Assembly (NCBI GenBank): GCA_902600895.1
Contig: CACKLF010000002.1
Coordinates: forward strand, 11,030-75,029
DNA from: an uncultured Alphaproteobacteria bacterium
Lineage (GTDB): Bacteria; Pseudomonadota; Alphaproteobacteria; Rhodobacterales; Rhodobacteraceae
Direction of reading: 5' to 3'
Length of the DNA stretch: 64,000 nt
Positions 817 through 41,519 of this stretch are shown here, in pieces; positions within the stretch are counted from its first letter, which is position 1; each line of letters starts with the position of its first letter. The notes under the pieces are model-generated. The model was not told the origin of the DNA, did no database searches, and saw only the letters and a list, made by a program, of their open reading frames with translations. The position numbers and the translations under genes are program-made.

Positions 817-2529
817 TCATGTTTCTAAAAAAACCAAATCTGTTACAGACTTGACCGGTACTATCTCGAAATCATCAGCTTTACCTCGCAACTTGACTGA
901 CTCACTAGGTAAATTATCCGAATTAAGTCCTGATTTATCTACAACGTATTTCGAAAGAACCAATTCACATTCAAAATCCTTAGTAAGAGTTTCTAAACGA
1001 CTTGCTATATTAACATTATCACCCACTGCAGTCTCAGAGATTGTAGAACCATATCCCATAAGCCCAACAATTGTATTACCCGCATGAACGCCCATGCCAA
1101 GTTTTAGTTCTTCTGAAAAATCAGCTTTCATTTGGCGATTAAAGTCATGCATCTCTGATGAAATCTCTTTTGCTGCATTGATAGCATTTCGACTGTTTTC
1201 CTCTATGAATTTTTGTTTATCAAAGATAGCCATAATGCCATCTCCTATAAATTTATCGAGTCTTCCTGAATGCCGCTCTATGGCTTCTCCACAGATTTCA
1301 TAATATTTATTAAGAATATAAACCACATCAAATGGTAGTTTTCTTTCAGAAAGATCTGTAAAGTTTCTCAAATCCACAAACAAAATAGCTATTTCACTTT
1401 CTTTACCCATTAAGATCTCGTGTTTTCCTGAACTTTGGAACTTACTACTTGGATTGAGTATGGGAAGAATAGTAATAGCATTGATTGGCCGAAGTTGGCA
1501 GGCTAAACGAATATCCTTATCCCAACCATTTTTTAATATAGCTCTGGTTTCAAATTCGTTAGGGTCGGGAACGCTGGTGGCACTTGATAGGATACGGATC
1601 CTACAAGTAGTGCATCGACCTTTACCACCACAAATTGACTGGTGAGGTATACCTGCTATTCGACTAGCTTCTAAAACTGTAGTTCCCTTAGAGACCAATA
1701 CCGTTTGATTGTTTGAATATTTAATAACAATGCTGCCAAAAAATCTGGCGCGGATCATATTTATTAATATTACTAATAATAAAGTTGCAATTACTATTGG
1801 ATAATATTTTAAAACAAGCGGTTCAATTTGAAATACAACAGGAAATGCTTGTTGAGGGATATTTTTTTCAAAAACTGAAAAAATGTAATTATCTAATCCT
1901 TGCAGGGACTTTATATAATTTAAAACGCTCAAGCCTCTAAGTCCCGCGATAAATCCCAGGATAGAAAAAATAGGAATTATCCAATAAAAGAAATTTATTA
2001 AATGGAAATTTCGCACATAAAATTCACTTTTGAATTTAAGGAGTCCATGTATCCCTATGACACCGTGCAACCATATGAAAAGAGTCATTAAAGTCCAAAA
2101 TATAGAGTCTAATACAATCTGATCGGGACTAGATAGTATGGCTGCAAATACCAATTCGTATGTTTCATTGCCTCCAAATACTTTCGTTATTATGAAGCCA
2201 GCTGCTACATGCTGAATTAATAGTAGTAATGCCAAAAATGGCATCACGAGCTGTGCCCATTCCAATAGTGTCATGTTGAAAGATTTTTTTCGTACAATGG
2301 CGTATATTCCTAGGAGTATATGTATAATAAATGAGCTATATAATAACACTAATGCTATAAAGCTTTGCCAAATAGGGCTAAAATATTTTTCTCTGACTAA
2401 ATCTGCGACTTCATAAGAAATTAGATTCACTGAGTGATTCAAGAGATGCATAAGTGAATATATAAATAATAAAAGTCCTGAAATTATCCTTAAATTTCTA
2501 ATTATGAGATTTAAATCTACCCTTGCCAT
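817..2529 (-). CDS. Membrane-anchored class III adenylate/guanylate cyclase with an embedded 2Fe-2S ferredoxin domain
   Basis: 570 aa. The N-terminal ~270 aa are polytopic with several intramembrane His. The middle carries a plant-type ferredoxin motif (CGGKGRCTTCRIRI ... LACQLRP). The C-terminus is a class III cyclase core (ILFVDLRNFTDLSE, FIGDGIMAIF, GVHAGNTIVG, GDNVNIASRLE). Confidence 0.8.
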   Translation of the reverse strand: MARVDLNLIIRNLRIISGLLLFIYSLMHLLNHSVNLISYEVADLVREKYFSPIWQSFIALVLLYSSFIIHILLGIYAIVRKKSFNMTLLEWAQLVMPFLALLLLIQHVAAGFIITKVFGGNETYELVFAAILSSPDQIVLDSIFWTLMTLFIWLHGVIGIHGLLKFKSEFYVRNFHLINFFYWIIPIFSILGFIAGLRGLSVLNYIKSLQGLDNYIFSVFEKNIPQQAFPVVFQIEPLVLKYYPIVIATLLLVILINMIRARFFGSIVIKYSNNQTVLVSKGTTVLEASRIAGIPHQSICGGKGRCTTCRIRILSSATSVPDPNEFETRAILKNGWDKDIRLACQLRPINAITILPILNPSSKFQSSGKHEILMGKESEIAILFVDLRNFTDLSERKLPFDVVYILNKYYEICGEAIERHSGRLDKFIGDGIMAIFDKQKFIEENSRNAINAAKEISSEMHDFNRQMKADFSEELKLGMGVHAGNTIVGLMGYGSTISETAVGDNVNIASRLETLTKDFECELVLSKYVVDKSGLNSDNLPSESVKLRGKADDFEIVPVKSVTDLVFLET

Positions 2530-12230: not shown

Positions 12231-12566
12231 TTAGTCTTTTATATTGTGAGGGAGTAAATGTTTGGTTAAGACGTCGCCTTCTAAAACTGATATTTCTCTA
12301 ACTAAATGATTAAAATCTTTATTGTTAAATTTTTGGTCTCGTGTTGTAGAGGCTGCTTCTCTCGCTTTATCATTTGGGTAAACAGAAACACTAATCCCAG
12401 AAGTTTCACCAGTCTTAACAAAGAGTAATATTTCTGCTTGAGGGTAGTTTTTTGCACCATTTTTTTGAAAATACTTGGCAAATTCTTCTAGAGCAGAGGA
12501 ATCATGAAATTCATACAAATTTACATTAGATATACTCACTAAATACCCTTCTACCTGATAGAACAC
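12231..12566 (-). CDS. Hypothetical small protein (111 aa)
   Basis: A clean ORF 21 nt upstream of the methyltransferase on the same strand, divergent from the selenoprotein candidate. No motif recognised. Confidence 0.4.
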   Translation of the reverse strand: MFYQVEGYLVSISNVNLYEFHDSSALEEFAKYFQKNGAKNYPQAEILLFVKTGETSGISVSVYPNDKAREAASTTRDQKFNNKDFNHLVREISVLEGDVLTKHLLPHNIKD

Positions 12567-12662
12567 TTAATTGTGAATGGAAGTGTTCATTATGTAAACT
12601 ATTTATTTACAGAAATTCAAAAATCTGCGATAATAGAGCCAATTTAATTTGAGAGAAAATTA

Positions 12663-13898
12663 ATGGTATTAATTCCAGAAATGCCTGCTATAGGGCGCGG
12701 ATTTATAAAAAGACTTAAACCACCTGATATTGAAAAACTTACTTGGACTGCGCCAAAAGCATCAGCGGAGCGAAGGGTTGCAATAGTCTCAACAGCAGCT
12801 GTCTCGAGACGTGGTGAAAAACCTTTTTCTTGGCTGGCTAGGGATTATCGCACAATTTCAAAAAGTGATAGAGATTTAGTAATGACTCATGTTGCAGCTG
12901 AATATGATCGAACAGGTTGGCAACAAGATCTTAATACAATTATTCCTTTTGATCGTTTGGAAGAGATGGCGAATGATGGTGAAATTGGCTCTGTGGCAGA
13001 GAGTCATTACGCCTTCATGGGGGCTGCTGATCCTCAGGATATGAAAAAATATGCTATTGAGGTAGCAGGAAAGATGAAGCAAGAAGCGGTTGATACCGTA
13101 TTTCTTGTTCCCGTCTGACCATTTTGTACGCGCGCCGTGTGCGGGCTGGCTCATATCTTCGAATCTCATGGTTTTTCAACAGTTCTAGTAGGATTTGTCA
13201 GAGAACATATTGAAATCATTAAACCTCCTAGAGCGTTGTGGTTAAATTTTCCAATGGGCAGACCTATGGGAAAACCTAACGATCCTGATTATCAAAAAAA
13301 AATAATCCGTAGTGCTTTTGAATTGTTGGAAAAGAAGGCTGGCCCTGTACTTGAAGATTTTCCAGATATAATACCCGTAAAAGACGGAAGGATGGGATAT
13401 GCTCTTCCTGTGGATCTGGTAATGAAGGTGTCGGAGATTGGTGATGTAGATAGCCTTCTGAGGGAGGTTCAGTCAGAAATTTCTGGCATGTATCAAGACT
13501 ATCTGCTTGCAAAGAAATTTCGAGGCAGAACAACAGTTGGTTCAAGTGAAATGGAAATAAAAGAACTTGCTCCATTTGTAGCTTCATTTGTTAAGGGAGA
13601 AAAACCTAATAATCCTAGGAAAGGTGTTACAGCAATTCCTCAACTCAAATTAGTAGTAGAGGATTTAAATGCCTATTATACAGAAACTAGAATGCATAGG
13701 GACGATATTGATGATTTTGAAGTCCTTGGAAAATGGTTTTGGGAAGAGTCTAAAGTTGGAAAGCTAGTCTTGGCGCTAGAGGCTGTGTCATTGGAAAGTA
13801 ATGACAAGGTACTCCGTCAAATTGTTAATATGTCTCTTATAACACCTCGATTTTGGTCTGAAGGCCCACTTCCAGGGACATCAGCATCTGGTTGGTGA
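12663..13898 (+). CDS. GrdB/PrdB-family (glycine/sarcosine/betaine/D-proline reductase protein B-like) selenoprotein candidate, with in-frame TGA (Sec) at 13116..13118
   Basis: Track ORFs 12663..13118 and 13137..13898 share a frame (the offset of 474 nt is 3 x 158). Only one TGA and six sense codons lie between them. The joined protein (411 aa) reads ..AVDTVFLVPV-U-PFCTRAVCGLAHIFESHGFSTVLVGF... The U-x-x-C-T-R context after a hydrophobic strand matches my recollection of the Sec site of GrdB-type proteins. TGA is a normal stop for other genes here, at 714..716, 10398..10400 and 13896..13898. Confidence 0.7.
13126..13146 (+). promoter_or_regulatory. Candidate bacterial SECIS hairpin downstream of the in-frame TGA
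   Basis: GUACGCGC-GCCGU-GUGCGGGC. Proposed pairs: G26-C46, U27-G45, (A28xG44 mismatch), C29-G43, G30-C42, C31-G41, G32-U40, C33-G39, with a 5-nt loop GCCGU. It begins 7 nt after the UGA, and the loop lies about 16 nt downstream. The stretch is strikingly GC-rich for this AT-rich window. Folded by eye only. Confidence 0.45.
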
Positions 13899-16322: not shown

Positions 16323-17111
16323 ATGGAAAAAGTTTATTTAGAGGATATCATTGATTATAACTCATGCCCCCTATTGGATAAAAAATTCGTCAGCAATTGT
16401 TTCGAGGTTTTGAGTAGAGAAGGCGCTCTTACAATTAAGAATTTTTTAAAATCAAAAACAATATCAAGTTTGGTAGAAGAGGCTAAGAATAATCAACATA
16501 AAGCCTACTACTCTGACTCTACGCATAACATTTATCTCACACCAAGTGATGATTCTTTACCTGATGATCATATTTTTAATTTACAGATAAAATCATCAAA
16601 AGGGTGTATAACCACTGACCAAATACCAGACAACTCTGCCTTAAAAGCTGTTTATACTTCAGAAGTGTTTAAAAACTTTATAGCAGCAATAGTTGGTGAA
16701 AAGACACTTTATGAGTATGAGGATCCTTTGTCTTCTATAAATATTCACTATGCTAAACATGGGCAAGAACTGGGATGGCATTTTGATAATTCAAGTTTTG
16801 CAGTGACACTTCTGTTGCAAAAACCCTTAGATGGGGGTGTTTTTGAATATGTTAAAAATGTGCGGAATTCCGAGTCCGGAGAAATGGGTTTTGATAAAGC
16901 AAAAGAAGTTGTTAAGGGCAAAATAGCACCATCTGTTTTGGACCTAGATCCTGGAACGTTAGTCTTATTTAAAGGTAGGGACTCAATGCATAGGGTCACT
17001 CCAACAGTGGGAAAGCAAACACGCTATCTCGTTGTGTTCGCTTACAATTCCAAGCCCGGAGTTTCGTTGTCTAAATCAGCCCAAAAAACCTTTTATGGAA
17101 GGGTAACTTAA
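16323..17111 (+). CDS. Fe(II)/2-oxoglutarate oxygenase superfamily protein (small free-substrate hydroxylase type)
   Basis: 262 aa. HxD motif WHFDNS and distal His in DSMHRVTP, about 75 residues apart, consistent with a jelly-roll core. Family assignment beyond the superfamily is uncertain. Confidence 0.55.
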   Translation: MEKVYLEDIIDYNSCPLLDKKFVSNCFEVLSREGALTIKNFLKSKTISSLVEEAKNNQHKAYYSDSTHNIYLTPSDDSLPDDHIFNLQIKSSKGCITTDQIPDNSALKAVYTSEVFKNFIAAIVGEKTLYEYEDPLSSINIHYAKHGQELGWHFDNSSFAVTLLLQKPLDGGVFEYVKNVRNSESGEMGFDKAKEVVKGKIAPSVLDLDPGTLVLFKGRDSMHRVTPTVGKQTRYLVVFAYNSKPGVSLSKSAQKTFYGRVT

Positions 17112-17113
17112 CC

Positions 17114-18433
17114 TTACTGTTTGCCTGGTATCCAACTGGTACCTGCTAAAGGCACGCCGGCCATTGCTGACGCCTCCACTGTCAGAGCGCATAAATCCTC
17201 CGGTTCTAAATTTCTTAGGTCATTTTTCCCACATGCTCGCGCTATTGTTTGTGCTTCCATGGTCATAACCTTTAGAAAGTTTGATAAGCGGCGACCACCT
17301 TCTATAGGATCCAACTTTTTCATTAATGTAGGGTTTTGCGTAGTTATACCTGCAGGATCATTTCCTTCATGCCAATCATCATATGCTCCATGTGTTGTAC
17401 CAAGTTTTTGATACTGTTCTTCATACTTGGGATCATTATCGCCCAAAGCTATTAAGGCTGCAGTCCCAATAGATACTGCATCTGCTCCCAGAGCCATTGC
17501 TTTGGCAACATCGGCACCATTTCTTATACCGCCAGAGACAATCAATTGAACTTTTTTATGTACTCCCAATTCCTGTAAGGCTTTTACAGCTGGCCTTATG
17601 CAGGCTAGAGTGGGAATTCCAACATTTTCAATGAAAACCTCCTGTGTAGCGGCGGTACCCCCTTGCATGCCATCAATTACAATGGCATCCGCTCCAGCCT
17701 TAACAGCTAGTGCAATATCGTAAAATGGTCGTGCAGCTGCTACCTTTACAATTATCGGAACTTTCCACCCTGTAATCTCTCTGAGTTCGAGTATTTTAAT
17801 TTCCATATCATCTGGACCGGTCCAGTCTGGATGACGACAAGGTGAGCGTTGATCAATCCCTTTTGGTAGAGTTCTCATTTCAGCAACTCGGTCATTAATT
17901 TTTTGGCCTAATAGCATACCACCACCACCTGGTTTAGCACCTTGACCAACAACTACTTCTATGGCATCTGCCTTTCTTAAGTCATCAGGGTTCATTCCAT
18001 ATCTAGATGGTAAAAGTTGGTATATAAGTTTTTTTGAATGCCCCCTTTCCTCTTTAGTCATTCCCCCGTCGCCTGTTGTTGTAGAGGTGCCAGCAATTGT
18101 AGCACCTCTTCCTATTGCTTCTTTTGCTGGGCCAGAGAGTGCGCCAAAACTCATTCCTGCTATTGTTATAGGAATATCAAGATAGAGTGGGTTTTTAGCA
18201 TTTTTATCTCCTATGGTAACTTTAGTGTTGCACGACTCTCGATATCCTTCTAGTGGATATCGTGAAATAGATGCTCCAAGAAAAAGTAAGTCATCAAAAT
18301 GTGGAAGACGCCTTTTTGATCCCCCACCTCTAATATCATAAATGCCTGTTTCAGCTGCTCGACGTATTTCCGAGTTGGTATATGGATCAAATAAGGTTGA
18401 TTGCCTAGGATGAGTTTTGGGACCTTGGGACAT
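17114..18433 (-). CDS. GltB FMN/synthase-domain protein (N-methylglutamate synthase subunit C-like)
   Basis: 439 aa, matching the FMN-binding TIM-barrel domain of glutamate synthase large subunit (GAKPGGGG, SGGIRNGADVAKAMALGADAV). It is the last gene of a three-gene set with overlapping or adjacent starts. Confidence 0.8.
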   Translation of the reverse strand: MSQGPKTHPRQSTLFDPYTNSEIRRAAETGIYDIRGGGSKRRLPHFDDLLFLGASISRYPLEGYRESCNTKVTIGDKNAKNPLYLDIPITIAGMSFGALSGPAKEAIGRGATIAGTSTTTGDGGMTKEERGHSKKLIYQLLPSRYGMNPDDLRKADAIEVVVGQGAKPGGGGMLLGQKINDRVAEMRTLPKGIDQRSPCRHPDWTGPDDMEIKILELREITGWKVPIIVKVAAARPFYDIALAVKAGADAIVIDGMQGGTAATQEVFIENVGIPTLACIRPAVKALQELGVHKKVQLIVSGGIRNGADVAKAMALGADAVSIGTAALIALGDNDPKYEEQYQKLGTTHGAYDDWHEGNDPAGITTQNPTLMKKLDPIEGGRRLSNFLKVMTMEAQTIARACGKNDLRNLEPEDLCALTVEASAMAGVPLAGTSWIPGKQ

Positions 18434-18443
18434 TGTTTAATCC

Positions 18444-19124
18444 TTAATATTTATTTGCGTTGTCGACATTAAAATTGTATAGGCTTCTCGCTGATCCATA
18501 CCTTCGAAAACCTTCGACTTCCATGTTATCAATTTTAGCTTTCATAAAGAGTTTTTTGAGTAAATTTTTGTGGCTTTTTTCCATCTTTTTTTCGACACAA
18601 TCTGCCCCAAGTGATTTAACCTTTCCAATCACAAAAATATTTGCCTCATAAATACTATCTCCGAGAGCGTCACCCGCATCTCCACAAATTACAAGATTTC
18701 CTGCCTGCGCCATAAATGCTGACATATGACCAACGTTACCTTGGACAATTATATCTATTCCTTTCATAGAAATCCCACACCTTGACGAAGAGTTTCCCTC
18801 TATTATTAAAATTCCTCCATGAGCTGAGGCGCCTGCATATTGGCTGGCATTTCCTTTCACCTGTACGGTGCCAGACATCATGTTTTCGGCAACCCCTGGG
18901 CCTACGGAGCCATTGACAACAATATTGGCCTTTTTGTTCATTCCACCACAGTAATAACCCACACTGCCATCTATTTTGACATTGATTGAGTTATCTAAGC
19001 CTACGGCTATAGCATGCCTTCCCATAGGGTTTTTGATCATCCAATCTATTTTTTGAGGTGACCCTTGAAGATTAGAGTTAACTTCTCTTAGAGATAGGGA
19101 TTTCAAATCTAACGTTTGCATCAT
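18444..19124 (-). CDS. GXGXG-motif protein (GltB C-terminal beta-helix domain; N-methylglutamate synthase subunit B-like)
   Basis: 226 aa with repeated G-x-G-x-G beta-helix turns (GSVGYYCGGGM.., GSVGPGVAENM, GNVGHMSAF). ATGA overlap with the upstream amidotransferase gene. Confidence 0.8.
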   Translation of the reverse strand: MMQTLDLKSLSLREVNSNLQGSPQKIDWMIKNPMGRHAIAVGLDNSINVKIDGSVGYYCGGMNKKANIVVNGSVGPGVAENMMSGTVQVKGNASQYAGASAHGGILIIEGNSSSRCGISMKGIDIIVQGNVGHMSAFMAQAGNLVICGDAGDALGDSIYEANIFVIGKVKSLGADCVEKKMEKSHKNLLKKLFMKAKIDNMEVEGFRRYGSARSLYNFNVDNANKY

Positions 19125-20020
19125 CTATGCTCCCAAAAGTATACAGTTGCAGGTTCTGGTTCCCACACCTTAGCCGTTTCAATTTTTGGTAAATGAGAAA
19201 GAGCTCTGTATTCGGAGCCAAATGCCACATAACTATCGGTCTCTGCCAAGATTGCAGGCTTACACGCTATCGGATCTCTTAATACGCCAAAGCCTTTCTC
19301 AGTTCCAACAACAAATGTATAAAAACCATCCAAATCATTTAGAGAAGACTTGAGGGCGTCACGTAGGTTCGCACCATTATTCATTTTGTCTGTTAAGTAG
19401 GAAGCAGCAACTTCACTATCATTTTCTGTTTCAAATGATATGCCCCCATTTATCAACCCCCGCCTTAAGCTGTTGTGATTTGATAGTGATCCGTTATGAA
19501 CAAGACACTGATCGGTCCCAGTAGAGAATGGGTGTGCTCCCAAAGTTGTTACAGCGGACTCTGTCGCCATTCTGGTATGCCCAATACCATGGGAGCCCGT
19601 CATCTTTCGGATATTAAACCTTTCTACAACGCTTTCAGGCTCTCCAACTTCTTTATAAATTTCAATATTTTTTCCAATACTCATAATCCTAATTTTAGGA
19701 AAATTTAACTTCATATCGTGTAAAGCTGTCCGAGCACTTTCTTGTTTAATTAATAATACTGCATGGGTGGAGTTTACCTTCAATCTTGCAGAAGAGTAAT
19801 TTTTCTTTTTGAGGAAGGTGCTTAAATTAGGAAAATCAGTTTCTGACATTTCTGACTGAATGGTGACCTTAATTAGCGATGACTCTTTTTCAGAGTAAAT
19901 GGCTACTCCAGCGCTGTCAGGGCCACGGTCACTCATCGTTATCAACATATCACCAAGCAAATTCCCTAATCTATTTTCGATGGGTTTTTGTTTTGCAAAT
20001 AGACCAATTATTCCGCACAT
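19121..20020 (-). CDS. Class II (Ntn) glutamine amidotransferase (N-methylglutamate synthase subunit A-like)
   Basis: The N-terminus MCGIIGL puts the nucleophile Cys right after the initiator Met, so the start is moved to 20020. The track starts two codons earlier. Ntn-amidotransferase fold motifs are present (RGPDSAG, HTRMATES). Confidence 0.8.
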   Translation of the reverse strand: MCGIIGLFAKQKPIENRLGNLLGDMLITMSDRGPDSAGVAIYSEKESSLIKVTIQSEMSETDFPNLSTFLKKKNYSSARLKVNSTHAVLLIKQESARTALHDMKLNFPKIRIMSIGKNIEIYKEVGEPESVVERFNIRKMTGSHGIGHTRMATESAVTTLGAHPFSTGTDQCLVHNGSLSNHNSLRRGLINGGISFETENDSEVAASYLTDKMNNGANLRDALKSSLNDLDGFYTFVVGTEKGFGVLRDPIACKPAILAETDSYVAFGSEYRALSHLPKIETAKVWEPEPATVYFWEHR

Positions 20021-20063
20021 ATTCACTCCGTTATCAATTTAGGAACAGAAATTGTAGTGGCTA

Positions 20064-27954: not shown

Positions 27955-28115
27955 ACGGTTCTCGAAAGTATCGGGAGAAACTGGAAATCAGTGCCGAAGG
28001 AGCAACCGCCCCGGAAACTCTCAGGAAAAAAGGACCGTTACTTTTTTGAACTCTGGAGAGAGACCGAGTTGGTCCGCCGAAGGGATAATGATCTCAGGCA
28101 AATGAACAGAGGGGG
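27955..28115 (+). promoter_or_regulatory. Tandem glycine riboswitch (two aptamers) in the gcvT leader
   Basis: Aptamer 1: CGGGAGAAA..GUGCCGAAGGAGCAACC..CUCAGGAAAAAAGGACCG. Aptamer 2: CUCUGGAGAGAGACC..GUCCGCCGAAGGGAUAA..CUCAGGCAAAUGAACAGAG. Both carry the conserved GGAGA / CCGAAGG(A/G) / CUCAGG..A..GAC cores and sit directly upstream of gcvT. Edges are approximate (+/- 10 nt). Confidence 0.9.
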
Positions 28116-28190
28116 TGTCAACTAAAATGCGCAATGGCGTATATTGGTTGGTTTGCCGGTTTAATAAATTTATATAAGTGGAGAAAAATT

Positions 28191-29318
28191 TTGGCAAATG
28201 CCTTGAAGACAATCCTGTTTTCGTTTCATAAAGAGATGGGGGGTAAAATGGTACCCTTCGCTGGTTATGAAATGCCTCTCCAATATAAATCAGGCATAAT
28301 GAAAGAGCATTTGTTTTGTCGAGAGTCTGCTGCTCTTTTTGATGTTAGCCATATGGGGCAGATTATATTGAGAGCCAAAAGTAAGGAAAAAAATGCAGTA
28401 GCCAAAAGTCTAGAGTCTCTCATCCCAATAGATTTAATTAATCTTCGTGAAAATAGACAGAGATATGGATTTCTACTTAATGATAAGGGTGGAATAATCG
28501 ATGATTTGATGATCTCAAATAGAGGTGAATATTTTATCATCGTAGCAAACGCTTCCAGAAAAGATATTGATTTTAAACTTTTGCAAGAAAAGCTCGGAGA
28601 TGAACTTGAAATAAAAATGTTAGCAGATAAAGCGCTTGTTGCAATCCAAGGACCTAAATCGGAAGAGGCTCTTAGTAAAATTTTTAATGGTATTTCAGAT
28701 ATGAGTTTTTTAGATGTAAATACATTCTTTTACGAAGGTCAGGCAGTTGAAATCTCCCGATCCGGATATACGGGTGAGGATGGTTTTGAAATATCAATAT
28801 CAAACAGTTTAGTGGAAAAATTTTCTCAGACTGTACTCGAAGATCCCAGTGTAAAACTTGCTGGTCTTGGAGCAAGGGACTCTCTTAGATTGGAAGGCTC
28901 CCTCTGTCTTTATGGGCAAGATATTTCTGAAGATATTTCCCCAATAGAGGCTGGCCTTGCCTGGGCAATTCAAAAATCCAGAAGAGAAGGTGGTGAAAGA
29001 GAAGGTAATTTCCCAGGATCCAATAACATACTGTCTCAAATAAAAAACGGTGTAGAAAAAAGACGTATTGGTTTAGCACCAGATGGCAAAGCTCCAATAA
29101 GGGCTGGGACAAAATTATTTAGCGATAAAAATGGCTCAGATTATATTGGAAGAGTGACTTCAGGTGGATATTCACCGTCTTTATCGAAGCCGATATCAAT
29201 GGCTTACATTTTTGGTGATGATAATACAAATGAGAACTTTTTTGCGGAAGTTAGAGGTGCATTCTTGCCGGTAAGGAAAGTGAAAATGCCCTTTATGAAT
29301 AATAATTTCAAAAGATAG
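28191..29318 (+). CDS. gcvT: Glycine cleavage system aminomethyltransferase (T protein)
   Basis: Homology starts at ..[28 protein letters not shown]. The TTG at 28191 is preceded by GGAGA at a proper spacing. The track ATG at 28134 would add about 19 non-conserved residues inside the riboswitch expression platform. The start is uncertain by a few codons. Confidence 0.9.
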
Positions 29319-29331
29319 TTGGGAGGAGAAT

Positions 29332-29691
29332 ATGAAATATACGGAAGAACATGAATGGCTTTTAAAGGAAGGAGAAACTGTAACTGTTGGAATTACAGAG
29401 CATGCCGCCAGTGAGCTAGGGGACCTTGTATTCATTGAATTGCCAGAACAAGGTATGAAAGTAGAAAAAAATCAAGAGATTGTGGTTATTGAGAGTGTTA
29501 AAGCTGCATCAGACATTATGGCTCCGTTGGATGGAGAGATAATAGAAGTTAATGCTGCAATTGTTGAAAACCCAACTCTGGTTAATGAAGATCCTACTGG
29601 AGAGGCATGGTTTTTTAAGATGAAATTAGACAAGCCTGATGAATATGACGAGCTATTAGATGAGTCTGAATACAAAGCATTAATTGGATAA
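29332..29691 (+). CDS. gcvH: Glycine cleavage system H protein
   Basis: 119 aa with the lipoyl-lysine motif [11 protein letters not shown]. Confidence 0.95.
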
Positions 29692-29715
29692 AACAAGATA
29701 CTAAAAGGGGGAAGA

Positions 29716-32568
29716 ATGACTTTTGAACCAACCGAATATTTACCATACGATTTTGCAAACAGGAGGCATATAGGACCATCTCCGACAGAAATGGCTGAGA
29801 TGTTAAGTCTTCTTGGCGTTGATGACATAGATGAGCTCATTGATCAGACAATTCCAAAAAATATGAGGCAAAAAAACCCATTATCCTGGGAAAAACCAAG
29901 ATCTGAGAGAGAAATGCTTTTTCAAATGCGTGAAACTGCCAGAAAAAACAAGCATATGACGACTTTGATCGGACAGGGCTATTATGGAACTATTACTCCA
30001 CCTGCCATACAACGAAATATTTTAGAAAACCCAGCTTGGTACACCTCTTATACTCCTTATCAGCCAGAAATATCACAGGGAAGGTTGGAAGCATTGTTAA
30101 ATTTTCAAACCATGATTAGTGATCTCACTGGTCTTGAGATTGCAAACGCATCTCTTCTTGATGAGTCTACTGCATGCGCTGAAGCAATGACCATGGCTCA
30201 TAGAGTATCGAAAACTAAATCAAATGCCTTTTTCATCGATCACAAGTGTCACCCTCAAAATATAGAGGTGATGAAGACTCGAGCTGAACCACTTGGGTAT
30301 GAGATAATTGTTGGCAACCCAGAAACGGACCTTAACTATTCGCAAGTGTTTGGTGCGATATTTCAATACCCTGGTACTTTCGGTTTCTTAAGGGATTTTA
30401 CTCACTATATTGATGAGCTTCATAACAATCAGGCAATAGCAATCATTGCAGCTGATCCATTAGCTTTGACTTTACTGAAGGAGCCTGGTGCCATGGGTGC
30501 AGACATAGCCATTGGATCAACTCAAAGGTTTGGGGTACCTCAAGGTTTTGGGGGTCCTCACGCTGCATATATGGCAACCAAAGAACAATATAAGCGGTCA
30601 ATGCCAGGTAGAATAGTTGGCGTATCAGTTGATAGCAGGGGAAATAGAGCATATCGTCTAGCACTTCAGACAAGAGAGCAACATATTAGACGTGAAAAAG
30701 CCACAAGTAACGTGTGTACAGCACAGGCATTGTTAGCAGTTATGGCTTCATTTTACGCCGTTATGCACGGACCCGACGGTTTAAAAGCCATAGCTCAGCG
30801 AATTCATAGAAAGACCGTCCGTCTCGCAAGGGGCCTCGAATCGGTTGGTTTAAAAATTGAGCAGGAACATTTTTTCGATACTATTACTGTGGATGTAGGT
30901 TCGATGCAGAATGTGATAATTAACTCTGCTATTAATGAAAACATAAATCTTAGGCGAGTTGGAGAAACAAGAATTGGTATATCTTTGGACGAGAGAACCC
31001 GACCTGCGACAATAGAAGCAATTTGGCGAGCTTTTGGTATATATTTGAAAGACGAAGACCTTACACCGGAATATAGAATTCCTGACAGCCTTTTAAGAAC
31101 ATCTGATTTTTTGTCACATCCCGTATTTCATATGAATCGAGCAGAGAGTGAGATGACCAGGTACATGAGACGTCTAGTAGATCGTGACCTAGCTCTAGAT
31201 AGATCAATGATTCCATTGGGTTCATGTACGATGAAACTGAATGCGGCGGCAGAAATGTTACCATTGACATGGCCAGAATTGTCACAAGTCCACCCCTTTG
31301 TTCCAAAAGACCAAGCTTTGGGATATAAAGAAATGATAGAAGATCTGTCAAAAAAGCTCTGTGATATTACAGGCTATGATTCGATATCGATGCAGTCAAA
31401 TTCAGGTGCGCAAGGAGAATATGCTGGCTTATTAACTATTAATGCATATCATAAGGCGAGAGGGGAAGAACATAGGAACATATGTCTGATTCCAGTCTCT
31501 GCACATGGAACCAACCCAGCTTCTGCTCAGATGGCTGGTTTGAATGTGGTAGCCGTAAAAACATCAGAAAATGGTGATATAGACCTTGATGACTTCAAAG
31601 CTAAGGCAAAGAAGCATGAAGAGAATCTCTCTTCTTGTATGATAACTTACCCTTCCACTCATGGAGTATTTGAAAGTACCGTAAAAGAAGTTTGTAGTAT
31701 TACTCATCAATTTGGTGGGCAGGTATATCTTGATGGGGCAAACTTAAATGCAATGGTTGGTTTAGTTAAGCCAGGAGAGCTAGGAGCTGATGTAAGTCAT
31801 TTAAACTTACATAAGACTTTTGCCATTCCTCACGGTGGTGGTGGGCCAGGAATGGGACCAATTGGAGTAAAAAAGCATTTGGAGGCGTATTTGCCGGGCC
31901 ACCCTATGACTGATAAAAAACCTGGGGCTATTTCAGCAGCTCCTTTTGGATCTGGCTCTATTCTTGCCATATCATGGAGCTATTGTTTGATGATGGGTGG
32001 AAGTGGTCTTACACAAGCAACTAGGGTAGCAATACTCAATGCAAATTATATTGCAAAAAGACTTAGTTCCGTTTACCCAATACTCTACAAGGGTCCCAAG
32101 GAAAGGATAGCACATGAGTGCATAATCGATGTAAGACCTATGACTGCTGATACTGGTGTTACTGTAGATGATATAGCTAAGAGGCTAGTTGATTGTGGGT
32201 TTCATGCTCCTACCATGAGCTTTCCAGTGGCTGGTACTTTAATGATAGAACCGACGGAGAGTGAAACAAAGGCAGAACTGGATCGATTCTGTGATGCAAT
32301 GATTGCAATTTATCAGGAATCAGAAGACATAAAGTCAGGAAGAGTTGATAAAGGTAATAATCCATTAAAAAATGCGCCTCACACTGTTGAAGATTTAGTT
32401 GGAGAATGGGATCGACCATATACTAGAGAACAGGCTTGCTTTCCGCCAGGAGCATTTAGAGTTGATAAGTATTGGCCTCCTGTTAATCGAGTGGATAATG
32501 CTTACGGGGACAGAAATTTGATATGCATTTGTCCGCCTATGGAAGAGTATTTGGAAGCGGCAGAGTAG
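29716..32568 (+). CDS. gcvP: Glycine dehydrogenase (decarboxylating), single-chain P protein
   Basis: 950 aa with the PLP-lysine motif [19 protein letters not shown]. It follows gcvT-gcvH. Confidence 0.95.
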
Positions 32569-37418: not shown

Positions 37419-38369
37419 TTAACTTTGAAGCTCATCCCACATATCTAAGTCCCTTTTATCTGTCCAAATTCTTGGGTGATCAATTCCTCGAGCCTCATCA
37501 AACGCTCTGGAAACATTAAATGGTAAGCAGTGTTCATATATAGCATAATCAGAGAATTTTTTATCACAACGTTCTCTTACTAAATCCCAGGCATCTTTAA
37601 GTGATCCATTTTTAGCGGCTACGCTAGCCACTGGATTGTATGTGCTTTGAACAAAATCTCTTGTACATTCAATTGCTTCATTAACTAATGAATTTCCAAT
37701 CAAGGCATCCCCTCTGCCTGGCGCTATTGCAGTGACTTTATAGTTTTTTATCTGGTCAAGAGTTTTGCCCCAATCAGAAAAGTGACCATCTCCACAGTAA
37801 CAAGCAGATTTATATTCTACTATATCGCCAGTGAACATTACATTCTCATCAGGTACGTGAATAACAATATCGCCAGCAGTGTGGGCTCTCCCAAGATGAA
37901 CTAGATCAATTTTTCTGTTTCCCAAATAGACTGTCATTGATTGACGAAAGGTTGTAGTAGGCCAGGTGAGTCCAGGGATTTCCTCATGACCCTGAAACAA
38001 TCTTGGGAAGCGCTGAAACTCACTATCCCAGTCTTCTTGGCCACGCTCAACAACCATTGATCTAGCAGTATCGGACATTATTATCTCTTTGGCTCTATAT
38101 GTTGATGCTCCTAGAACCCTTACGGCATGGTAGTGTGTTAGTACTAAATGGCTAATAGGTTTGTCTGTAACTTTTCTTATTTCGCTCACTACTTTTCTAG
38201 CAAGTAAAGGAGTAGCTTGAGCTTCAACTACCATTACACTTTCGTCACCAATAATCACACCAGAATTTGGGTCTCCTTCAGCGGTGAATGCAAAGAGACC
38301 ATCTCCAATTTCAGTGAAGCTAATTTTTTTTTCAGTGAGATCGTTTTGGGAGGCAAATTTTTTTGTCAT
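37419..38369 (-). CDS. Metallo-beta-lactamase-fold protein with a degenerate HxHxDH motif
   Basis: 316 aa with MBL-fold order. The canonical HxHxDH reads THYHAVRV, so the Asp-His pair is missing. A later GRAHTAGD His is present. Its ATG shares one base with the fahA stop (TAATG). Confidence 0.6.
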   Translation of the reverse strand: MTKKFASQNDLTEKKISFTEIGDGLFAFTAEGDPNSGVIIGDESVMVVEAQATPLLARKVVSEIRKVTDKPISHLVLTHYHAVRVLGASTYRAKEIIMSDTARSMVVERGQEDWDSEFQRFPRLFQGHEEIPGLTWPTTTFRQSMTVYLGNRKIDLVHLGRAHTAGDIVIHVPDENVMFTGDIVEYKSACYCGDGHFSDWGKTLDQIKNYKVTAIAPGRGDALIGNSLVNEAIECTRDFVQSTYNPVASVAAKNGSLKDAWDLVRERCDKKFSDYAIYEHCLPFNVSRAFDEARGIDHPRIWTDKRDLDMWDELQS

Positions 38370-39622
38370 TATTTTTCCTTTGCAAATTCATTTTTTGCCG
38401 GAATAACCTCTCCGACACAATCTCCAAAGCCAATGGAGTATGTTGAGGTAGTGCATCTTCCCTGCAAAATTATTTTATCCTGATCTTCGAGAAAAGTTCT
38501 TTGTTCACCATTTGACAGTAATATTGGCTCTTTCCCTCCCCAACTTAGCTCAAGCATGCTACCCCTTTGATTCTTATTCGGTCCAGAAATGGTGCCAGAC
38601 CCAATCAAATCACATACATTCATGGGGCACCCACTTGAAGAATGGTGTGCTATTTGTTGTGCAGCCGAATAGTAGAGCTGATTAAAATTGGTAACTGCCA
38701 CTATTTCTTCCTCTGATTTTTGAGTTTTCAGAAGTACATTCAATTCAATGTTGTAGAGCATTGGCTTAGTATCCCTAAGGTAAGGAAGAAGCTCATACTC
38801 TCTTTTTGGCGTTGAACACCTAAATGGTTCAAGCGCATGTTTGGTAACTATCCATGGACTTATACTTGTGGCTGTTGCTTTGGCTTGAAATGGCCCAAGA
38901 GGAACATACTCCCATGCTTGAATATCTCTGGCTGACCAATCATTGAGTATAACGTATCCAAAAATCATTTCATCAGCCTCGTCTACAGACATAGGTTGAC
39001 TACTGTTCATTCCTAAAATGGCTCCCATTTCTAACTCAAAATCAAATCTGCGACTTGGTAAAAATTTTGGAGTATCAAAATCTGGTCCTTTCAATTGTCC
39101 ATAGGGGCGTCTAATTTTTGTTCCAGAAACAACAACGGAGGATGCTCTTCCATTATAGCCAATAGGCATATGGAGCCAATTGGGAGGTAAAGCATTTTCG
39201 GGACCCCTAAACATTGTACCAACATTCTCGGCGTGATTTCTTCCGGAATAGAAATCAGTGTACTCGGCGACTTTAATAGGAAGGTGCATTTTAACTTCAG
39301 ATGCTTTGTACATCATAACAGAAATATTATCTTGATAGTAGCTACCTTTCGACAAGAACTGAGTTAATATTTTTCTAAGTTCATCCCATTTCGACTTACC
39401 AAGTTCTATAAAGCTATTCCAACAATTACTTTTGAGTGTTCCATTGAATTCAATATAGCCTCTCATTTCGAGTTGGCTCAAATCCAGCACCATATTTCCG
39501 ATCCTTACGCCACATCTGGGTTCATTATCATTTATCGAAAATATTCCATAAGGCAGGTTATTGAGGGGGAAATGGGTGTCAACTGTGTTAGCGCTTTCAA
39601 CCCAACTTGGCATCAATGACAA
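38369..39622 (-). CDS. fahA: Fumarylacetoacetase
   Basis: 417 aa. N-terminal FPLNNLPYGIFS and C-terminal FAH-fold motifs (GYVILNDWSARDIQ, GDLIGSGTISG). Confidence 0.9.
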   Translation of the reverse strand: MSLMPSWVESANTVDTHFPLNNLPYGIFSINDNEPRCGVRIGNMVLDLSQLEMRGYIEFNGTLKSNCWNSFIELGKSKWDELRKILTQFLSKGSYYQDNISVMMYKASEVKMHLPIKVAEYTDFYSGRNHAENVGTMFRGPENALPPNWLHMPIGYNGRASSVVVSGTKIRRPYGQLKGPDFDTPKFLPSRRFDFELEMGAILGMNSSQPMSVDEADEMIFGYVILNDWSARDIQAWEYVPLGPFQAKATATSISPWIVTKHALEPFRCSTPKREYELLPYLRDTKPMLYNIELNVLLKTQKSEEEIVAVTNFNQLYYSAAQQIAHHSSSGCPMNVCDLIGSGTISGPNKNQRGSMLELSWGGKEPILLSNGEQRTFLEDQDKIILQGRCTTSTYSIGFGDCVGEVIPAKNEFAKEK

Positions 39623-39649
39623 AATTCATCTCCTTTATCCTAGTTTTTA

Positions 39650-40996
39650 TTAATACACGAAATTCTTTTCGATATCGGACCAACAGTCAATGTAGTTGTC
39701 CTGCATAGGGGCTTCTGTCGCTGAATATTCTGTAAGGTGTTGGGGAAATCTTGTTTCAAACATGAATGACATTGTATTCTCTAATTTTGTTGGTGCAAGC
39801 TCACCATTGGATGCCTTTTCAAAAGCATCCTTGTCGGGTCCGTGGGGTAACATCATATTGTGAAGGCTCATGCCTCCAGGAACGAACCCTTCAGGTTTGG
39901 CATCGTATTGGCCATAAATATTTCCCATTAGCTCTGACATAATATTTTTATGATACCAAGGGGGTCTAAAGGTCTTTTCTGCCACTGACCACCTTTCTCG
40001 AAAGAGCACAAAATCAATATTTGCTGTTCCATTAATTCCGGAGGGGGCAGTCAACACTGTGTAAATTGAGGGATCAGGGTGATCAAAAAGTAATGCTCCA
40101 ACCGGACAATAGTTGGAAAGGTTATATTTGCATGGGCCATAATTTCCATGCCACGCTACTACGTCTATCGGACTATGGTTAATTTCCGTGATATGAAATT
40201 GACCACACCATTTAATTGTTACTTTGGATGGTGCATCAATATCCTCATAATAGGCAACTGGTGTTTTAAAGTCTCTCCTATTAGCCAAACAATTTGCACC
40301 TATTGGACCCCTGTTGGGCAGAGAAAATTTTTGCCCATAGTTTTCACATATAAACCCACGGCAGGGTCCTTTCATTACTTCTACCCTGTAGACAAGACCT
40401 CTTGGTATTATGACTATTTCTTTAGGGGAAGCTTCAATAATCCCAAGCTCAGTAACAAACCGAATTTCTCCATCTTGGGGAACAACTAGAAGCTCTGAGT
40501 CAGCAGAATAAAAATATTCATTTTGCATGGATTGTGTCACAAGATAGACATGGCTGGCCATTCCAACTTGAGTATTAACATTTCCAGCCGTGGTCATAGT
40601 GCGAATGCCATCAATCCAATTTTGATTGGCTTTACTATGTGGTATTGGATCCCAACGATATTGCCCAAGGCTTACAATATCATCAATAATATTGGGGGCA
40701 GACTTCCAGTGAGGAACATCAATTTTCTTATATCTATGTGAATGTTTAACAGACGGTCGTATACGATAACACCAGGTCCTCTCATTTTGATGGTTTGGTG
40801 CCGTAAAAGCTGTACCAGATAGCTGCTCTCCGTAAAGGCCATAACTACATTTTTGGGGACTATTTCTACCTTGAGGTAAGGCACCAGGTAATGCTTCTGT
40901 TTCAAAATCATTTCCAAAACCAGACATATATTTAGTCCGGTTAGAAGCATAATCTGTTTTTTTACTAATTTCATTTTTAGCAGCTGGATAATTCAT
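39650..40996 (-). CDS. hmgA: Homogentisate 1,2-dioxygenase
   Basis: 448 aa. [26 protein letters not shown] and later NIMSELMG ... [12 protein letters not shown] are signature HgmA segments. Confidence 0.95.
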
Positions 40997-41016
40997 AAAA
41001 GTCTCCTAAGAAATAA

Positions 41017-41049
41017 TAGTTACTAACATAACAGTTGTTTTTGTAACTA
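41017..41049. promoter_or_regulatory. Inverted repeat TAGTTAC-N19-GTAACTA in the hmgA/marR divergent spacer (candidate operator)
   Basis: A 7-bp perfect inverted repeat lies inside the 58-nt spacer between the divergent hmgA operon and the MarR gene. The half-site GTTACTAAC / GTAACTAAC is also directly repeated. No experimental support. Confidence 0.3.
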
Positions 41050-41054
41050 ACAAT

Positions 41055-41510
41055 ATGTATTATTTGAACATGATCAAGAATAAGCCTTTTTATATTGAAA
41101 ATTTCCTTCCATACATTCTCACACAAGCTGCTGAAGCAGTAAGTGCCGAATTTCAGAGTTATTATAAAAAAAAATATGGAATATTACGAACTGAATGGAG
41201 AGTTTTATTTCACCTTGGTAGTTTTGGACAAATGACAGCAAGGGATATTGGAATTAGAGCAAAAACACATAAGACAAAAATTAGTAGGGCTGTATTTAGA
41301 TTAGATAAAAATAACCTAATAATGAGAACTAGCTCAGAAAAAGATCGACGCATCGAACTATTATCCCTTACCAAGAAGGGTACTGGAGTATATAATGATC
41401 TAAAAACTGAGGCGGAGTTATTTGAAGAAAAGGTTTCAGAAAACTTTAGTGACAATGAGATTGCTGTCTTGAAAAGATGCTTGGAAAAAATCGAAAAGCA
41501 ATTTATTTAG
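41055..41510 (+). CDS. MarR family transcriptional regulator
   Basis: 151 aa with a winged-helix region (WRVLFHLGSFGQMTARDIGIRAKTHKTKISRAVFRLDKNNLI..DRR). It is divergent from the homogentisate operon. Confidence 0.85.
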   Translation: MYYLNMIKNKPFYIENFLPYILTQAAEAVSAEFQSYYKKKYGILRTEWRVLFHLGSFGQMTARDIGIRAKTHKTKISRAVFRLDKNNLIMRTSSEKDRRIELLSLTKKGTGVYNDLKTEAELFEEKVSENFSDNEIAVLKRCLEKIEKQFI

Positions 41511-41519
41511 GAGACAAAA

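What the first reader, a model, noticed from the sequence alone, without database searches (positions are those of the whole stretch)
12663..13898. Two ORF-track entries are one GrdB/PrdB-family selenoprotein gene with an in-frame TGA (motif U-P-F-C-T-R)
ORFs 12663..13118 and 13137..13898 are in the same frame and are separated only by TGA 13116..13118 and six sense codons. The second ORF's GTG start is simply an internal Val. Read-through gives ..KQEAVDTVFLVPV-U-PFCTRAVCGLAHIFESHGFSTVLVGFVREH... In the substrate-specific B proteins of clostridial glycine, sarcosine, betaine and D-proline reductases (the Pfam GRDB family), selenocysteine sits in this same context. It follows a hydrophobic strand, is followed by x-x-C-T-R, and then comes a helix and another strand. 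This is from memory of the GrdB sequence. The N-terminal half also has the family look (..IIPFDRLEEMANDGEIGSVAESHY.. before the Sec strand).

TGA is not a sense codon generally, because it terminates at least three other genes in the window, including this one. An automatic annotation would report two fragments or a pseudogene.

The biology is puzzling. No grdA, grdE, grdC/D or thioredoxin partners are nearby. The host encodes many O2-dependent enzymes (hmgA, AlkB, flavin monooxygenases), so a Stickland-type reductase role is unlikely. An orphan GrdB-like selenoenzyme in an aerobic pelagic bacterium has no assigned function.
Basis: partly seen in the sequence, partly recalled or inferred. Interest (0 to 1): 0.85.

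Follow-up and report, generated by a model that had tools for sequence, protein, structure and literature searches.

The report
Known marine PrdB-like selenoprotein gene
The two ORFs are one 411-codon gene whose in-frame TGA almost certainly encodes selenocysteine; it belongs to a stand-alone "PrdB-like" selenoprotein family reported from ocean metagenomes in 2005 and 2008, so it is real and mis-annotated but not new, and its substrate is still unknown.

Summary
Observation confirmed. ORFs 12663..13118 and 13137..13898 share a frame and are split only by TGA 13116-13118.

Selenocysteine reading strongly supported:
- The joined protein matches PrdB and GrdB models across the TGA.
- All 17 homologous genome loci, three sequence-checked distant homologues (27-34% identity) and at least 120 metagenome contigs carry TGA in the motif P-[VI]-U-P-F-C-T-R-A-V. 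The Cys (TGY) version of the same DNA pattern has 0 hits.
- The six codons 12-29 nt after the TGA have frozen synonymous sites and form a SECIS-like hairpin. This is the most GC-rich 20-mer stretch of the window.
- In 12-13 of the 17 genome loci the gene lies beside selA, selB and tRNA-Sec, in part of them also selD.

It is not a true PrdB or GrdB. It scores below their curated cutoffs. It has an extra roughly 185-residue C-terminal region containing a helical domain with no fold match. No PrdA, GrdE, GrdA or thioredoxin partner occurs in the window or recurs across about 140 loci.

Novelty is low. Sequences with this exact motif are in the supplements of the Sargasso Sea (2005) and GOS (2008) selenoproteome papers, labelled "Proline reductase PrdB".

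Sec machinery is absent from this 64-kb window, so its presence in this genome is untested. Function remains unknown.

The parts
12663..13898 (+). Complete selenoprotein gene: 411 sense codons (Sec at codon 152) plus the TGA stop at 13896-13898. It is monocistronic, flanked by minus-strand genes on both sides.
   Evidence: The start MV[LKR]I.EMPA is conserved in homologues. dN/dS is low in both halves.
12606..12634 (+). Promoter-like site TTTACA-17-(TG)GATAAT, 28 nt upstream of the ATG. Weak evidence only.
   Evidence: 10 of 12 matches. The number of such sites in the region is not above the shuffled expectation.
12753..13334 (+). PrdB-like (GRDB-superfamily) catalytic domain, residues 31-224, spanning the Sec codon.
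   Evidence: TIGR04483 covers residues 31-224 = profile 24-220/238, E = 5.5e-27. Pfam GRDB covers residues 77-149.
13116..13118 (+). UGA read as selenocysteine (Sec152). It is followed by C, giving a UGA-C context.
   Evidence: TGA is at this column in 18 of 18 close sequences, in 3 sequence-checked distant ones and in at least 120 metagenome contigs. The Cys version has 0 hits.
13125..13127 (+). Cys155, the proposed resolving cysteine of the U-x-x-C motif.
   Evidence: Invariant in every homologue examined.
13126..13150 (+). SECIS-like hairpin. Pairs are 13126-13150, 13127-13149, 13130-13146, 13131-13145, 13133-13143, 13134-13142 and 13135-13141. The apical loop is 13136-13140 (CGUGU). The frozen core is 13128-13147 (ACGCGCGCCGUGUGCGGGCU).
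   Evidence: RNAalifold consensus. Third-position entropy is 0 for codons 156-161 against a gene mean of 1.31 bits. 95.6% of pair cells are paired in 105 unique metagenome sequences. It is the most GC-rich 20-mer stretch of the window.
13434..13832 (+). All-helical domain (residues about 258-390) within the C-terminal extension. It is absent from PrdB and GrdB and has no Pfam or PDB relative.
   Evidence: AF2 model of residues 159-411 has pLDDT 83, with most 10-residue blocks of the helical part (residues 100-232 of the 253-residue fragment modelled, = protein residues 258-390) above 90. Foldseek against PDB gives best E = 2.2. No Pfam hit. The domain is conserved down to 26% identity.

Best explanation
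This is a single gene for a stand-alone, selenocysteine-containing oxidoreductase of the GrdB/PrdB (Pfam GRDB) superfamily. It belongs to the marine 'PrdB-like' group.

How it is made:
- During translation, UGA 13116-13118 is recoded as Sec. SelB carrying Sec-tRNA(Sec) binds the mRNA hairpin at 13126-13150, whose apical loop starts 18 nt after the UGA.
- The product is 411 residues. It has an N-terminal PrdB-like alpha/beta domain and a C-terminal extension containing a helical domain specific to this family.

Proposed chemistry (inferred, not shown):
- Sec152 lies between a hydrophobic stretch predicted only at low confidence to be a beta-strand and a helix, and acts as the nucleophile.
- Cys155 resolves the adduct to a selenenyl-sulfide.
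- A general cellular dithiol re-reduces that bond.
- There is no pyruvoyl partner, so the substrate is not D-proline or glycine handled through a PrdA or GrdE Schiff base. The substrate is unknown.

Shown here: one gene, a conserved UGA, RNA-level constraint on the hairpin, superfamily membership, lack of partners, and linkage to sel genes in relatives. Inferred: actual Sec insertion in this host, and the redox mechanism.
For: - Frame and junction are as described.
- PrdB and GRDB model hits span the TGA.
- TGA is conserved in 18 of 18 close sequences, in distant homologues and in at least 120 metagenome contigs, against 0 for Cys.
- Both halves are under purifying selection.
- Codons 156-161 have invariant third positions across 16 sequences. 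Only 6 of 159 degenerate invariant-residue columns are frozen, and 5 of them are the TGA plus codons 156-159.
- The same holds in 105 unique metagenome sequences, where all substitutions in the stem are pairing-compatible one-sided changes or rare mismatches.
- selA, selB and selD score above NCBIfam equivalog cutoffs, and tRNA-Sec lies adjacent in 12 of the 16 genome loci scanned for tRNAs. 15 of 50 metagenome loci of at least 5 kb also carry sel genes.
- TGA is a normal stop elsewhere in the window.
- Published as a selenoprotein family.
Against: - No selA, selB, selC or selD lies in this 64-kb window or within 10 kb of the gene in its two closest relatives, L001 and L002. Sec decoding in this genome is therefore assumed.
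- The hairpin shows no compensatory covariation because it is nearly invariant.
- Its folding energy is not exceptional against shuffles: z = -1.35 for 40 nt and +0.07 for 81 nt. Alternative pairing registers exist.
- No Cys-containing homologue was found, so the classic Sec/Cys pair test is missing for this motif.
- No experiment, solved structure or substrate is available. The catalytic scheme is by analogy only.
Confidence: 0.88

Rival explanations
1. It is a genuine Stickland-type reductase subunit: D-proline reductase PrdB, or the glycine/sarcosine/betaine reductase B protein. It would work with a pyruvoyl proprotein (PrdA or GrdE), GrdA and thioredoxin encoded elsewhere in the genome.
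For: The best model hits are PrdB, GrdH, GrdF and GrdB. Databases name the N-fragment 'D-proline reductase (dithiol) PrdB'. The literature files it under 'Proline reductase PrdB'.
Against: - It scores 94.7 bits against the 300-bit PrdB equivalog cutoff, and 42 bits against the 65.45-bit cutoff of the selenoprotein-B subfamily.
- It is 411 aa with an extra C-terminal region that neither family has.
- No PrdA, GrdE, GrdA, GrdC, GrdD or thioredoxin was found among the 50 further window ORFs scanned.
- Across about 140 loci the only recurrent neighbours are sel genes, plus a LysR-type regulator and a GcvH-like gene in a minority.
- The hosts are aerobic marine Alpha- and Gammaproteobacteria.
Confidence: 0.03
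2. There are two separate polypeptides. Translation truly ends at TGA 13116, and a second protein starts at GTG 13137. This would be a conserved split gene, or a decaying pseudogene.
For: Every gene caller produces exactly these two products. A GTG is present at the same place in all homologues.
Against: - The six codons between the TGA and the GTG (PFCTRA) are invariant at protein level even at 27% overall identity, and they contain the UxxC cysteine.
- The PrdB profile aligns straight through the junction.
- The GTG is fixed as part of the frozen RNA block, not as a start codon.
- The stop is always TGA, never TAA or TAG, in more than 140 sequences.
- The gene is physically linked to selA, selB and selC.
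- dN/dS of about 0.07-0.12 rules out a pseudogene.
Confidence: 0.03
3. The TGA is a sequencing or assembly error, or is read by a non-Sec route such as near-cognate Trp or Cys read-through.
For: The UGA-C context is leaky in bacteria (established knowledge). No sel genes are in the window.
Against: An identical TGA occurs in independent isolates, single-cell genomes, MAGs and metagenomes. The Cys codon is never seen in this motif. The conserved downstream RNA element and the adjacent Sec machinery in relatives have no role under simple read-through.
Confidence: 0.03

Closest known systems
Marine 'Proline reductase PrdB' selenoprotein group of Zhang, Fomenko & Gladyshev 2005 (Sargasso Sea, PMC1088965) and Zhang & Gladyshev 2008 (GOS, PMC2398784)
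   Same: It is the same family. The supplements list sequences such as AACY01016836 (...VFLVPVuPFCTRAVSVLAHFFESYGFSTVLVGFVKEH...PGTSGSGW) and JCVI_READ_929035 (...VDTVFLVPVUPFCTRAVCGLAHIFESQGF...), with the same motif, the same C-terminal domain and the same TGA. The group was reported as the third most abundant selenoprotein family in the Sargasso Sea (42 genes), with 235 genes in GOS and a UxxC motif.
   Different: Nothing essential differs. Those papers assumed PrdB function by name. At least one listed Sargasso entry (AACY01016836) has its ORF start called 14 codons before the TGA. In the passages retrieved they did not discuss the extra C-terminal domain, the lack of PrdA or the linkage to sel genes. 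The 'PrdB' label there also covers a second subtype with motif U-GLCNQT.
Clostridial D-proline reductase subunit PrdB (NCBIfam TIGR04483; EC 1.21.4.1)
   Same: Homologous alpha/beta domain: residues 31-224 align to profile positions 24-220 of 238. It shares Sec in a UxxC motif in the aligned region (residue-by-residue correspondence to the PrdB Sec column was not verified) and presumably selenol/thiol redox chemistry.
   Different: - It scores only one third of the equivalog cutoff.
- It is 411 aa, against about 240.
- It has a helical C-terminal domain.
- No PrdA pyruvoyl subunit, PrdC or prd operon is present.
- The hosts are aerobic marine proteobacteria.
- The gene is monocistronic or lies next to sel genes.
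Glycine/sarcosine/betaine reductase protein B (GrdB/GrdF/GrdH; Pfam PF07355, TIGR01918)
   Same: It shares the Pfam GRDB domain immediately N-terminal to the Sec. By profile offsets the Sec column corresponds to about position 346 of the 431-435-position GrdB-type models. It also shares the UxxC motif.
   Different: It lacks the first roughly 265 residues of GrdB. It is below the subfamily cutoff (42 against 65 bits). No grdA, grdE, grdC, grdD or trx genes are present. The C-terminal region is different.

Membership tests
Bacterial selenoprotein gene (SelB/SECIS-dependent UGA recoding) | In-frame UGA conserved at the same column in orthologues, with coding continuing downstream | tested here: met
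   18 of 18 close sequences, 3 sequence-checked distant homologues and at least 120 metagenome contigs carry it. Purifying selection acts on both sides.
Bacterial selenoprotein gene (SelB/SECIS-dependent UGA recoding) | Conserved stem-loop immediately 3' of the UGA, with the apical loop about 16-37 nt downstream and containing G/U | tested here: met
   The hairpin is at 13126-13150 with loop CGUGU starting 18 nt after the UGA. Synonymous sites are frozen in codons 156-161. 95.6% of pair cells are paired in 105 sequences. The spacing and loop criteria are from my memory of the bSECISearch model.
Bacterial selenoprotein gene (SelB/SECIS-dependent UGA recoding) | Compensatory covariation, or exceptional stability of the hairpin | tested here: inconclusive
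   There are no double changes because the element is nearly invariant. Folding z-scores are -1.35 and +0.07.
Bacterial selenoprotein gene (SelB/SECIS-dependent UGA recoding) | selA, selB, selC and selD present in the same genome | not testable with these tools
   They are absent from the 64-kb window. The rest of the genome is not available. In relatives they lie adjacent to the gene, and all score above NCBIfam cutoffs.
Bacterial selenoprotein gene (SelB/SECIS-dependent UGA recoding) | Cys-containing homologues at the Sec column (supportive, not obligatory) | tested here: not met
   There are 0 metagenome hits for the TGY version of the motif. No full-length form appears among the listed best hits of the three successful protein searches. 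The GOS paper reports 110 Cys homologues for its broader 'PrdB' class.
Pfam GRDB (PF07355) superfamily | Score above the gathering threshold | tested here: met
   36 bits against 22, residues 77-149 = profile 272-345/347. The N-fragments of homologues carry PF07355.
D-proline reductase PrdB (TIGR04483 equivalog) | Score at or above the 300-bit equivalog cutoff | tested here: not met
   94.7 bits.
D-proline reductase PrdB (TIGR04483 equivalog) | Sec or Cys in a UxxC motif in the aligned region | tested here: met
   U152-P-F-C155 lies within the aligned stretch 31-224. Residue-by-residue correspondence to the PrdB Sec is inferred from profile offsets, not seen directly.
D-proline reductase PrdB (TIGR04483 equivalog) | Partner PrdA (pyruvoyl proprotein) and a prd operon | tested here: not met
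   None was found among the 50 further window ORFs scanned. None recurs in about 140 loci.
D-proline reductase PrdB (TIGR04483 equivalog) | Single-domain protein of about 240 aa | tested here: not met
   411 aa, with a conserved C-terminal extension containing a helical domain.
Glycine/betaine/sarcosine/D-proline reductase selenoprotein B subfamily (TIGR01918) | Score at or above the 65.45-bit cutoff, and the full-length GrdB architecture | tested here: not met
   42.1 bits. Only profile positions 269-374 of 431 are matched.
Marine 'Proline reductase PrdB' selenoprotein group (Zhang et al. 2005/2008) | Same sequence family as the published members | tested here: met
   The motif VFLVPVuPFCTRAV and the whole C-terminal region match entries in the papers' supplements.

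The most novel reading that the evidence does not exclude
The family may not be a catabolic reductase at all. It could be part of the selenium-utilisation module itself, for example reducing or trafficking a selenium compound to supply selenide to SelD.

This would explain three observations:
- The gene sits directly beside selA, selB, selC and selD in three different gene orders across Alpha- and Gammaproteobacteria.
- Sec is never replaced by Cys in this motif.
- No other enzymatic partner is conserved.

A less radical variant is that the five genes travel together as a horizontally transferred 'Sec cassette', and this protein is the main reason these aerobes keep the Sec machinery.
Probability: 0.12. 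Interest if true: 0.7.

Novelty: already known. Interest (0 to 1): 0.3.

Why it matters
This is one of the most abundant selenoprotein families of the surface ocean. It is still split into two fragments by every gene caller, and it is named after an anaerobic Stickland enzyme that it cannot be.

Correct annotation matters for selenium-demand estimates in marine bacteria. The real substrate of a nearly obligate-Sec enzyme in aerobes is an open question.

This window adds no new kind of feature. The comparative work does sharpen the question in four ways:
- The protein stands alone, with no conserved enzymatic partner.
- It has a family-specific helical domain.
- It is linked to sel genes in many lineages.
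- It is present in cultured strains such as Roseovarius aestuarii KCTC 22174, where it could be tested.

Tried and rejected
Only the two fragments could therefore be used.
- A 43-residue junction-centred query, meant to pull out full-length Cys forms, returned no candidates. This was probably a limit of the word index for short queries, and it cost one search.
- No PDB relative was found by sequence; best E = 0.39, spurious.
- Foldseek of the C-fragment model against PDB gave nothing below E = 2.2.
- AF2 of the N-fragment alone failed, with pLDDT 36.5. The domain is cut in half and the alignment was shallow, so the model was not used.
- Hairpin thermodynamics are not significant against shuffles, and no covariation is present.
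- The single-sequence MFE register (10-bp stem, CGC loop) and an alternative 5-bp register fit the variation worse (85.5% and 88.4%) than the RNAalifold register (95.6%).
- An exact look-up of the window's C-fragment in the contig index found nothing, so the source record and the rest of the genome could not be reached.
- No other selenoprotein candidate, sel gene or tRNA was found in the window.
- Contexts of distant family members are heterogeneous and gave no substrate clue.
Full report
**1. The observation**

The sequence shows ORF 12663..13118 (151 codons, ending in TGA 13116-13118) and ORF 13137..13898 (GTG start) in the same frame. Six sense codons (CCA TTT TGT ACG CGC GCC = P-F-C-T-R-A) lie between them.

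TGA is an ordinary stop here. It terminates 15 of 53 long ORFs in the window, including this gene. A scan of all six frames for TGA-split ORF pairs found 39, and this is the only convincing one.

**2. One gene or two?**

The joined protein hits NCBIfam TIGR04483 (PrdB) over residues 31-224, which is profile 24-220 of 238, at E = 5.5e-27. The alignment therefore runs straight through the TGA. GrdH, GrdF and GrdB models hit around residues 70-218, and Pfam GRDB reaches 36 bits against a gathering cutoff of 22.

tblastn found 17 homologous loci in GTDB species genomes that cover the junction (an 18th, L018, covers only the C-terminal end), 13 of them matching over essentially the full length. They include Rhodobacteraceae (among them Roseovarius aestuarii KCTC 22174 and strain EL129), SAR116/Puniceispirillales and several Gammaproteobacteria. 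All 17 have an in-frame TGA at the same column, in the motif P-[VI]-U-P-F-C-T-R-A-V, in genomes of 31-59% GC.

Both halves are under equally strong purifying selection. pN is 0.10-0.24 against pS of 0.66-0.99, and dN/dS is about 0.07-0.13 where dS is not saturated.

In the 5.8-billion-protein collection, the best 120 hits for the whole protein are all 250-254-aa C-fragments. The best 120 hits for the N half are all 151-181 aa, and 119 of them are 151-158 aa. No full-length Sec or Cys form is listed. Sources call the N half 'D-proline reductase (dithiol) PrdB' or 'selenoprotein B family protein', and the C half 'hypothetical protein'.

A sensitive search of 1.84 billion cluster representatives with the C-fragment found 995 relatives. 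Most of the near-full-length hits among the top 150 start within the first few residues of the fragment, that is, at the same artificial start. Seven distant members at 27-41% identity were checked. Each has a GRDB-domain ORF, an 18-nt gap and then the C-fragment. In the three that I translated, the junction is again PV-TGA-PFCTRAV.

**3. Evidence for a SECIS element**

In a codon alignment of 16 full-length genes, mean third-position entropy is 1.31 bits. Codons 156-161 (T-R-A-V-[C/S]-[G/V]) have exactly 0 bits. Of 159 degenerate columns with an invariant residue, only six have an invariant third base. Five of those six are the TGA and codons 156-159. The flanking synonymous sites (codons 153-155 and 162 onward) vary freely.

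The same pattern holds in 105 unique metagenome sequences. The third positions of codons 156-158, 160 and 161 are at least 93% one base, and that of codon 159 is 82%.

The frozen block, ACGCGCGCCGUGUGCGGGCU (13128-13147), is 80% GC in a 38% GC window. All eight 20-nt windows with at least 16 G+C in the whole 64 kb lie here.

RNAalifold folds it as a hairpin at 13126-13150 with apical loop CGUGU at 13136-13140, 18 nt after the UGA. This register is paired in 95.6% of cells over the 105 sequences, with only one-sided changes such as G-C to G-U. Two alternative registers reach 85.5% and 88.4%.

There is no compensatory covariation, because almost nothing varies. The folding energy is also not exceptional against shuffles. 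The argument for a SECIS therefore rests on position and on RNA-level conservation. From my own knowledge, the position and the G/U-containing loop fit the bacterial SECIS model, as in E. coli fdhF. The UGA-C context is a weak terminator.

**4. Sec machinery**

The window contains no tRNA genes. It has no tblastn match to SelA, SelB or SelD. The two closest relatives, L001 and L002 at 83% identity, also lack them within 10 kb of the gene.

In the other lineages the picture is different. ARAGORN finds tRNA-Sec in 12 of 16 loci. The only conserved neighbours are a roughly 472-aa protein and a roughly 645-aa protein. NCBIfam identifies these as selA (543-582 bits against a cutoff of 268) and selB (398-413 bits against 242). 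In the Roseovarius type there is also a selD fused to the 'Nterm_to_SelD' oxidoreductase, 73 nt from the gene.

Among metagenome contigs carrying the motif, 15 of the 50 that are at least 5 kb long also carry sel genes. Clustering every neighbouring ORF of about 140 loci gives only SelA (29 loci), SelB (28), SelD (12), a LysR regulator (10) and a GcvH-like protein (9) as recurrent partners.

**5. Sec versus Cys**

A degenerate DNA pattern for P-[VI]-Cys-P-F-C-T-R-A-V (TGY at the Sec position) has 0 matches in the metagenome contig collection. Within this motif Sec is effectively obligate.

One caveat applies. Cys forms with different flanking residues would be missed, and the GOS paper counts 110 Cys homologues for its broader 'PrdB' class.

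**6. What it is not**

The protein scores 94.7 bits against the 300-bit PrdB equivalog cutoff, and 42 bits against the 65.45-bit cutoff of the selenoprotein-B subfamily. It has no counterpart of the first roughly 265 residues of GrdB.

It does have a C-terminal extension of about 185 residues that neither PrdB nor GrdB possesses. AF2 models residues 159-411 with pLDDT 83. An alpha/beta segment completes the PrdB-like domain, followed by an all-helical domain (residues about 258-390) in which most 10-residue blocks exceed pLDDT 90. That domain has no Pfam hit and no PDB fold match, with best Foldseek E = 2.2. It is conserved down to 26% identity, with invariant or near-invariant E, R, G, D, Y, E and W.W positions.

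No solved structure of the family exists by sequence.

Pfam scans of 50 further ORFs of the window found no PrdA, GrdE, GrdA, GrdC, GrdD or thioredoxin. The neighbours are:
- a sulfotransferase, a homocysteine S-methyltransferase and a SAM methyltransferase upstream;
- a rhodanese, a cupin, a TauD-family dioxygenase, a HalD-like oxygenase and an N-methylglutamate-synthase-like trio downstream.

The gene is flanked by opposite-strand genes, so it is monocistronic. A weak promoter-like site lies at 12606-12634.

**7. Mechanism**

Shown by the data: one gene, a conserved UGA with a constrained hairpin, GRDB-superfamily membership with U-x-x-C, a stand-alone architecture, and frequent linkage to sel genes.

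Inferred: SelB-dependent Sec insertion in this host. Also inferred is a selenol/thiol redox cycle, in which Sec152 is the nucleophile, Cys155 resolves the adduct to a Se-S bond, and a general dithiol re-reduces it. This is by analogy with PrdB and GrdB (established knowledge; reviewed in PMC13188914).

No pyruvoyl partner exists, so the substrate cannot be activated as a Schiff base. It must be intrinsically electrophilic or a redox-active S or Se species. I could not narrow it further, because the contexts of distant members are heterogeneous.

**8. Comparison with the literature**

The Sargasso Sea selenoproteome paper (PMC1088965) lists 'Proline reductase PrdB', UxxC, with 42 genes, as the third most abundant selenoprotein family. 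The GOS paper (PMC2398784) lists 235 selenoproteins in 38 samples.

Their supplementary files contain this very family. AACY01016836 reads MKDDAVNTVFLVPVuPFCTRAVSVLAHFF...PGTSGSGW. JCVI_READ_929035 reads ...VDTVFLVPVUPFCTRAVCGLAHIFESQGF....

The finding is therefore a rediscovery. Neither paper, nor the 2016, 2022 and 2026 surveys, discusses a function beyond the PrdB name in the passages retrieved. A full-text search for 'PrdB-like' finds no paper.

**9. Verdict**

Novelty is 'already known'. The residual interest is that the family is mis-annotated and misnamed, its function is unknown, and it is linked to sel genes. The step that remains untested for this window is whether its genome encodes the Sec machinery.

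Noticed in passing
window 27962-28047 (+), with 28134-32568: A glycine riboswitch aptamer (Rfam RF00504, 53 bits) lies directly upstream of a gcvT-gcvH-gcvP operon. gcvT and gcvH were confirmed by Pfam; gcvP is inferred from its size and position.
   Followed up: partly
window 17114-20026 (-): Three genes encode a Glu_synthase FMN domain protein (439 aa), a GXGXG protein (226 aa) and a class-II glutamine amidotransferase-like protein (301 aa). The trio looks like N-methylglutamate synthase (mgsCBA) of methylamine catabolism. The assignment rests on domain content only.
   Followed up: partly
L017 11297-17430 (also L005, L006, L007, L009): In Roseovarius-type genomes the order is: PrdB-like gene, selD fused to a pyridine-nucleotide-disulfide oxidoreductase (TIGR03169 + TIGR00476), tRNA-Sec, selB, selA. 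A stand-alone GcvH-like lipoyl-carrier gene then lies 13 nt upstream of selA on the same strand. A lipoyl protein inside a sel cluster is unexplained. It could be a dithiol donor.
   Followed up: partly
window 12561-12588: A perfect inverted repeat, GAACACTT-N12-AAGTGTTC, lies in the divergent promoter region between the 111-aa minus-strand ORF and the selenoprotein gene. It may be an operator site.
   Followed up: no
window 12231-12566 (-): A 111-aa ORF lies immediately upstream and divergent. It has no Pfam hit and is conserved only in the two closest relatives (L001, L002).
   Followed up: partly
window 817-2529 (-): A 570-aa protein combines a 2Fe-2S ferredoxin domain with an adenylate/guanylate cyclase catalytic domain. 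This is an unusual redox-linked cyclase architecture.
   Followed up: no
window 38369-42998: A homogentisate pathway cluster (fumarylacetoacetase, homogentisate 1,2-dioxygenase) sits next to a divergent MarR regulator and an aldehyde dehydrogenase.
   Followed up: partly
Supplement of PMC1088965 (e.g. AACY01424071): The published 'PrdB' class also contains a second, shorter subtype with motif LLVPS-U-GLCNQT. It is distinct from the PFCTRAV type, so the literature label lumps at least two families together.
   Followed up: no
window 16323-17111 (+): A 2OG/Fe(II) oxygenase has its best Pfam match to HalD/WelO5-type carrier-independent halogenases (64 bits). It lies next to a TauD-family dioxygenase and a cupin.
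   Followed up: no
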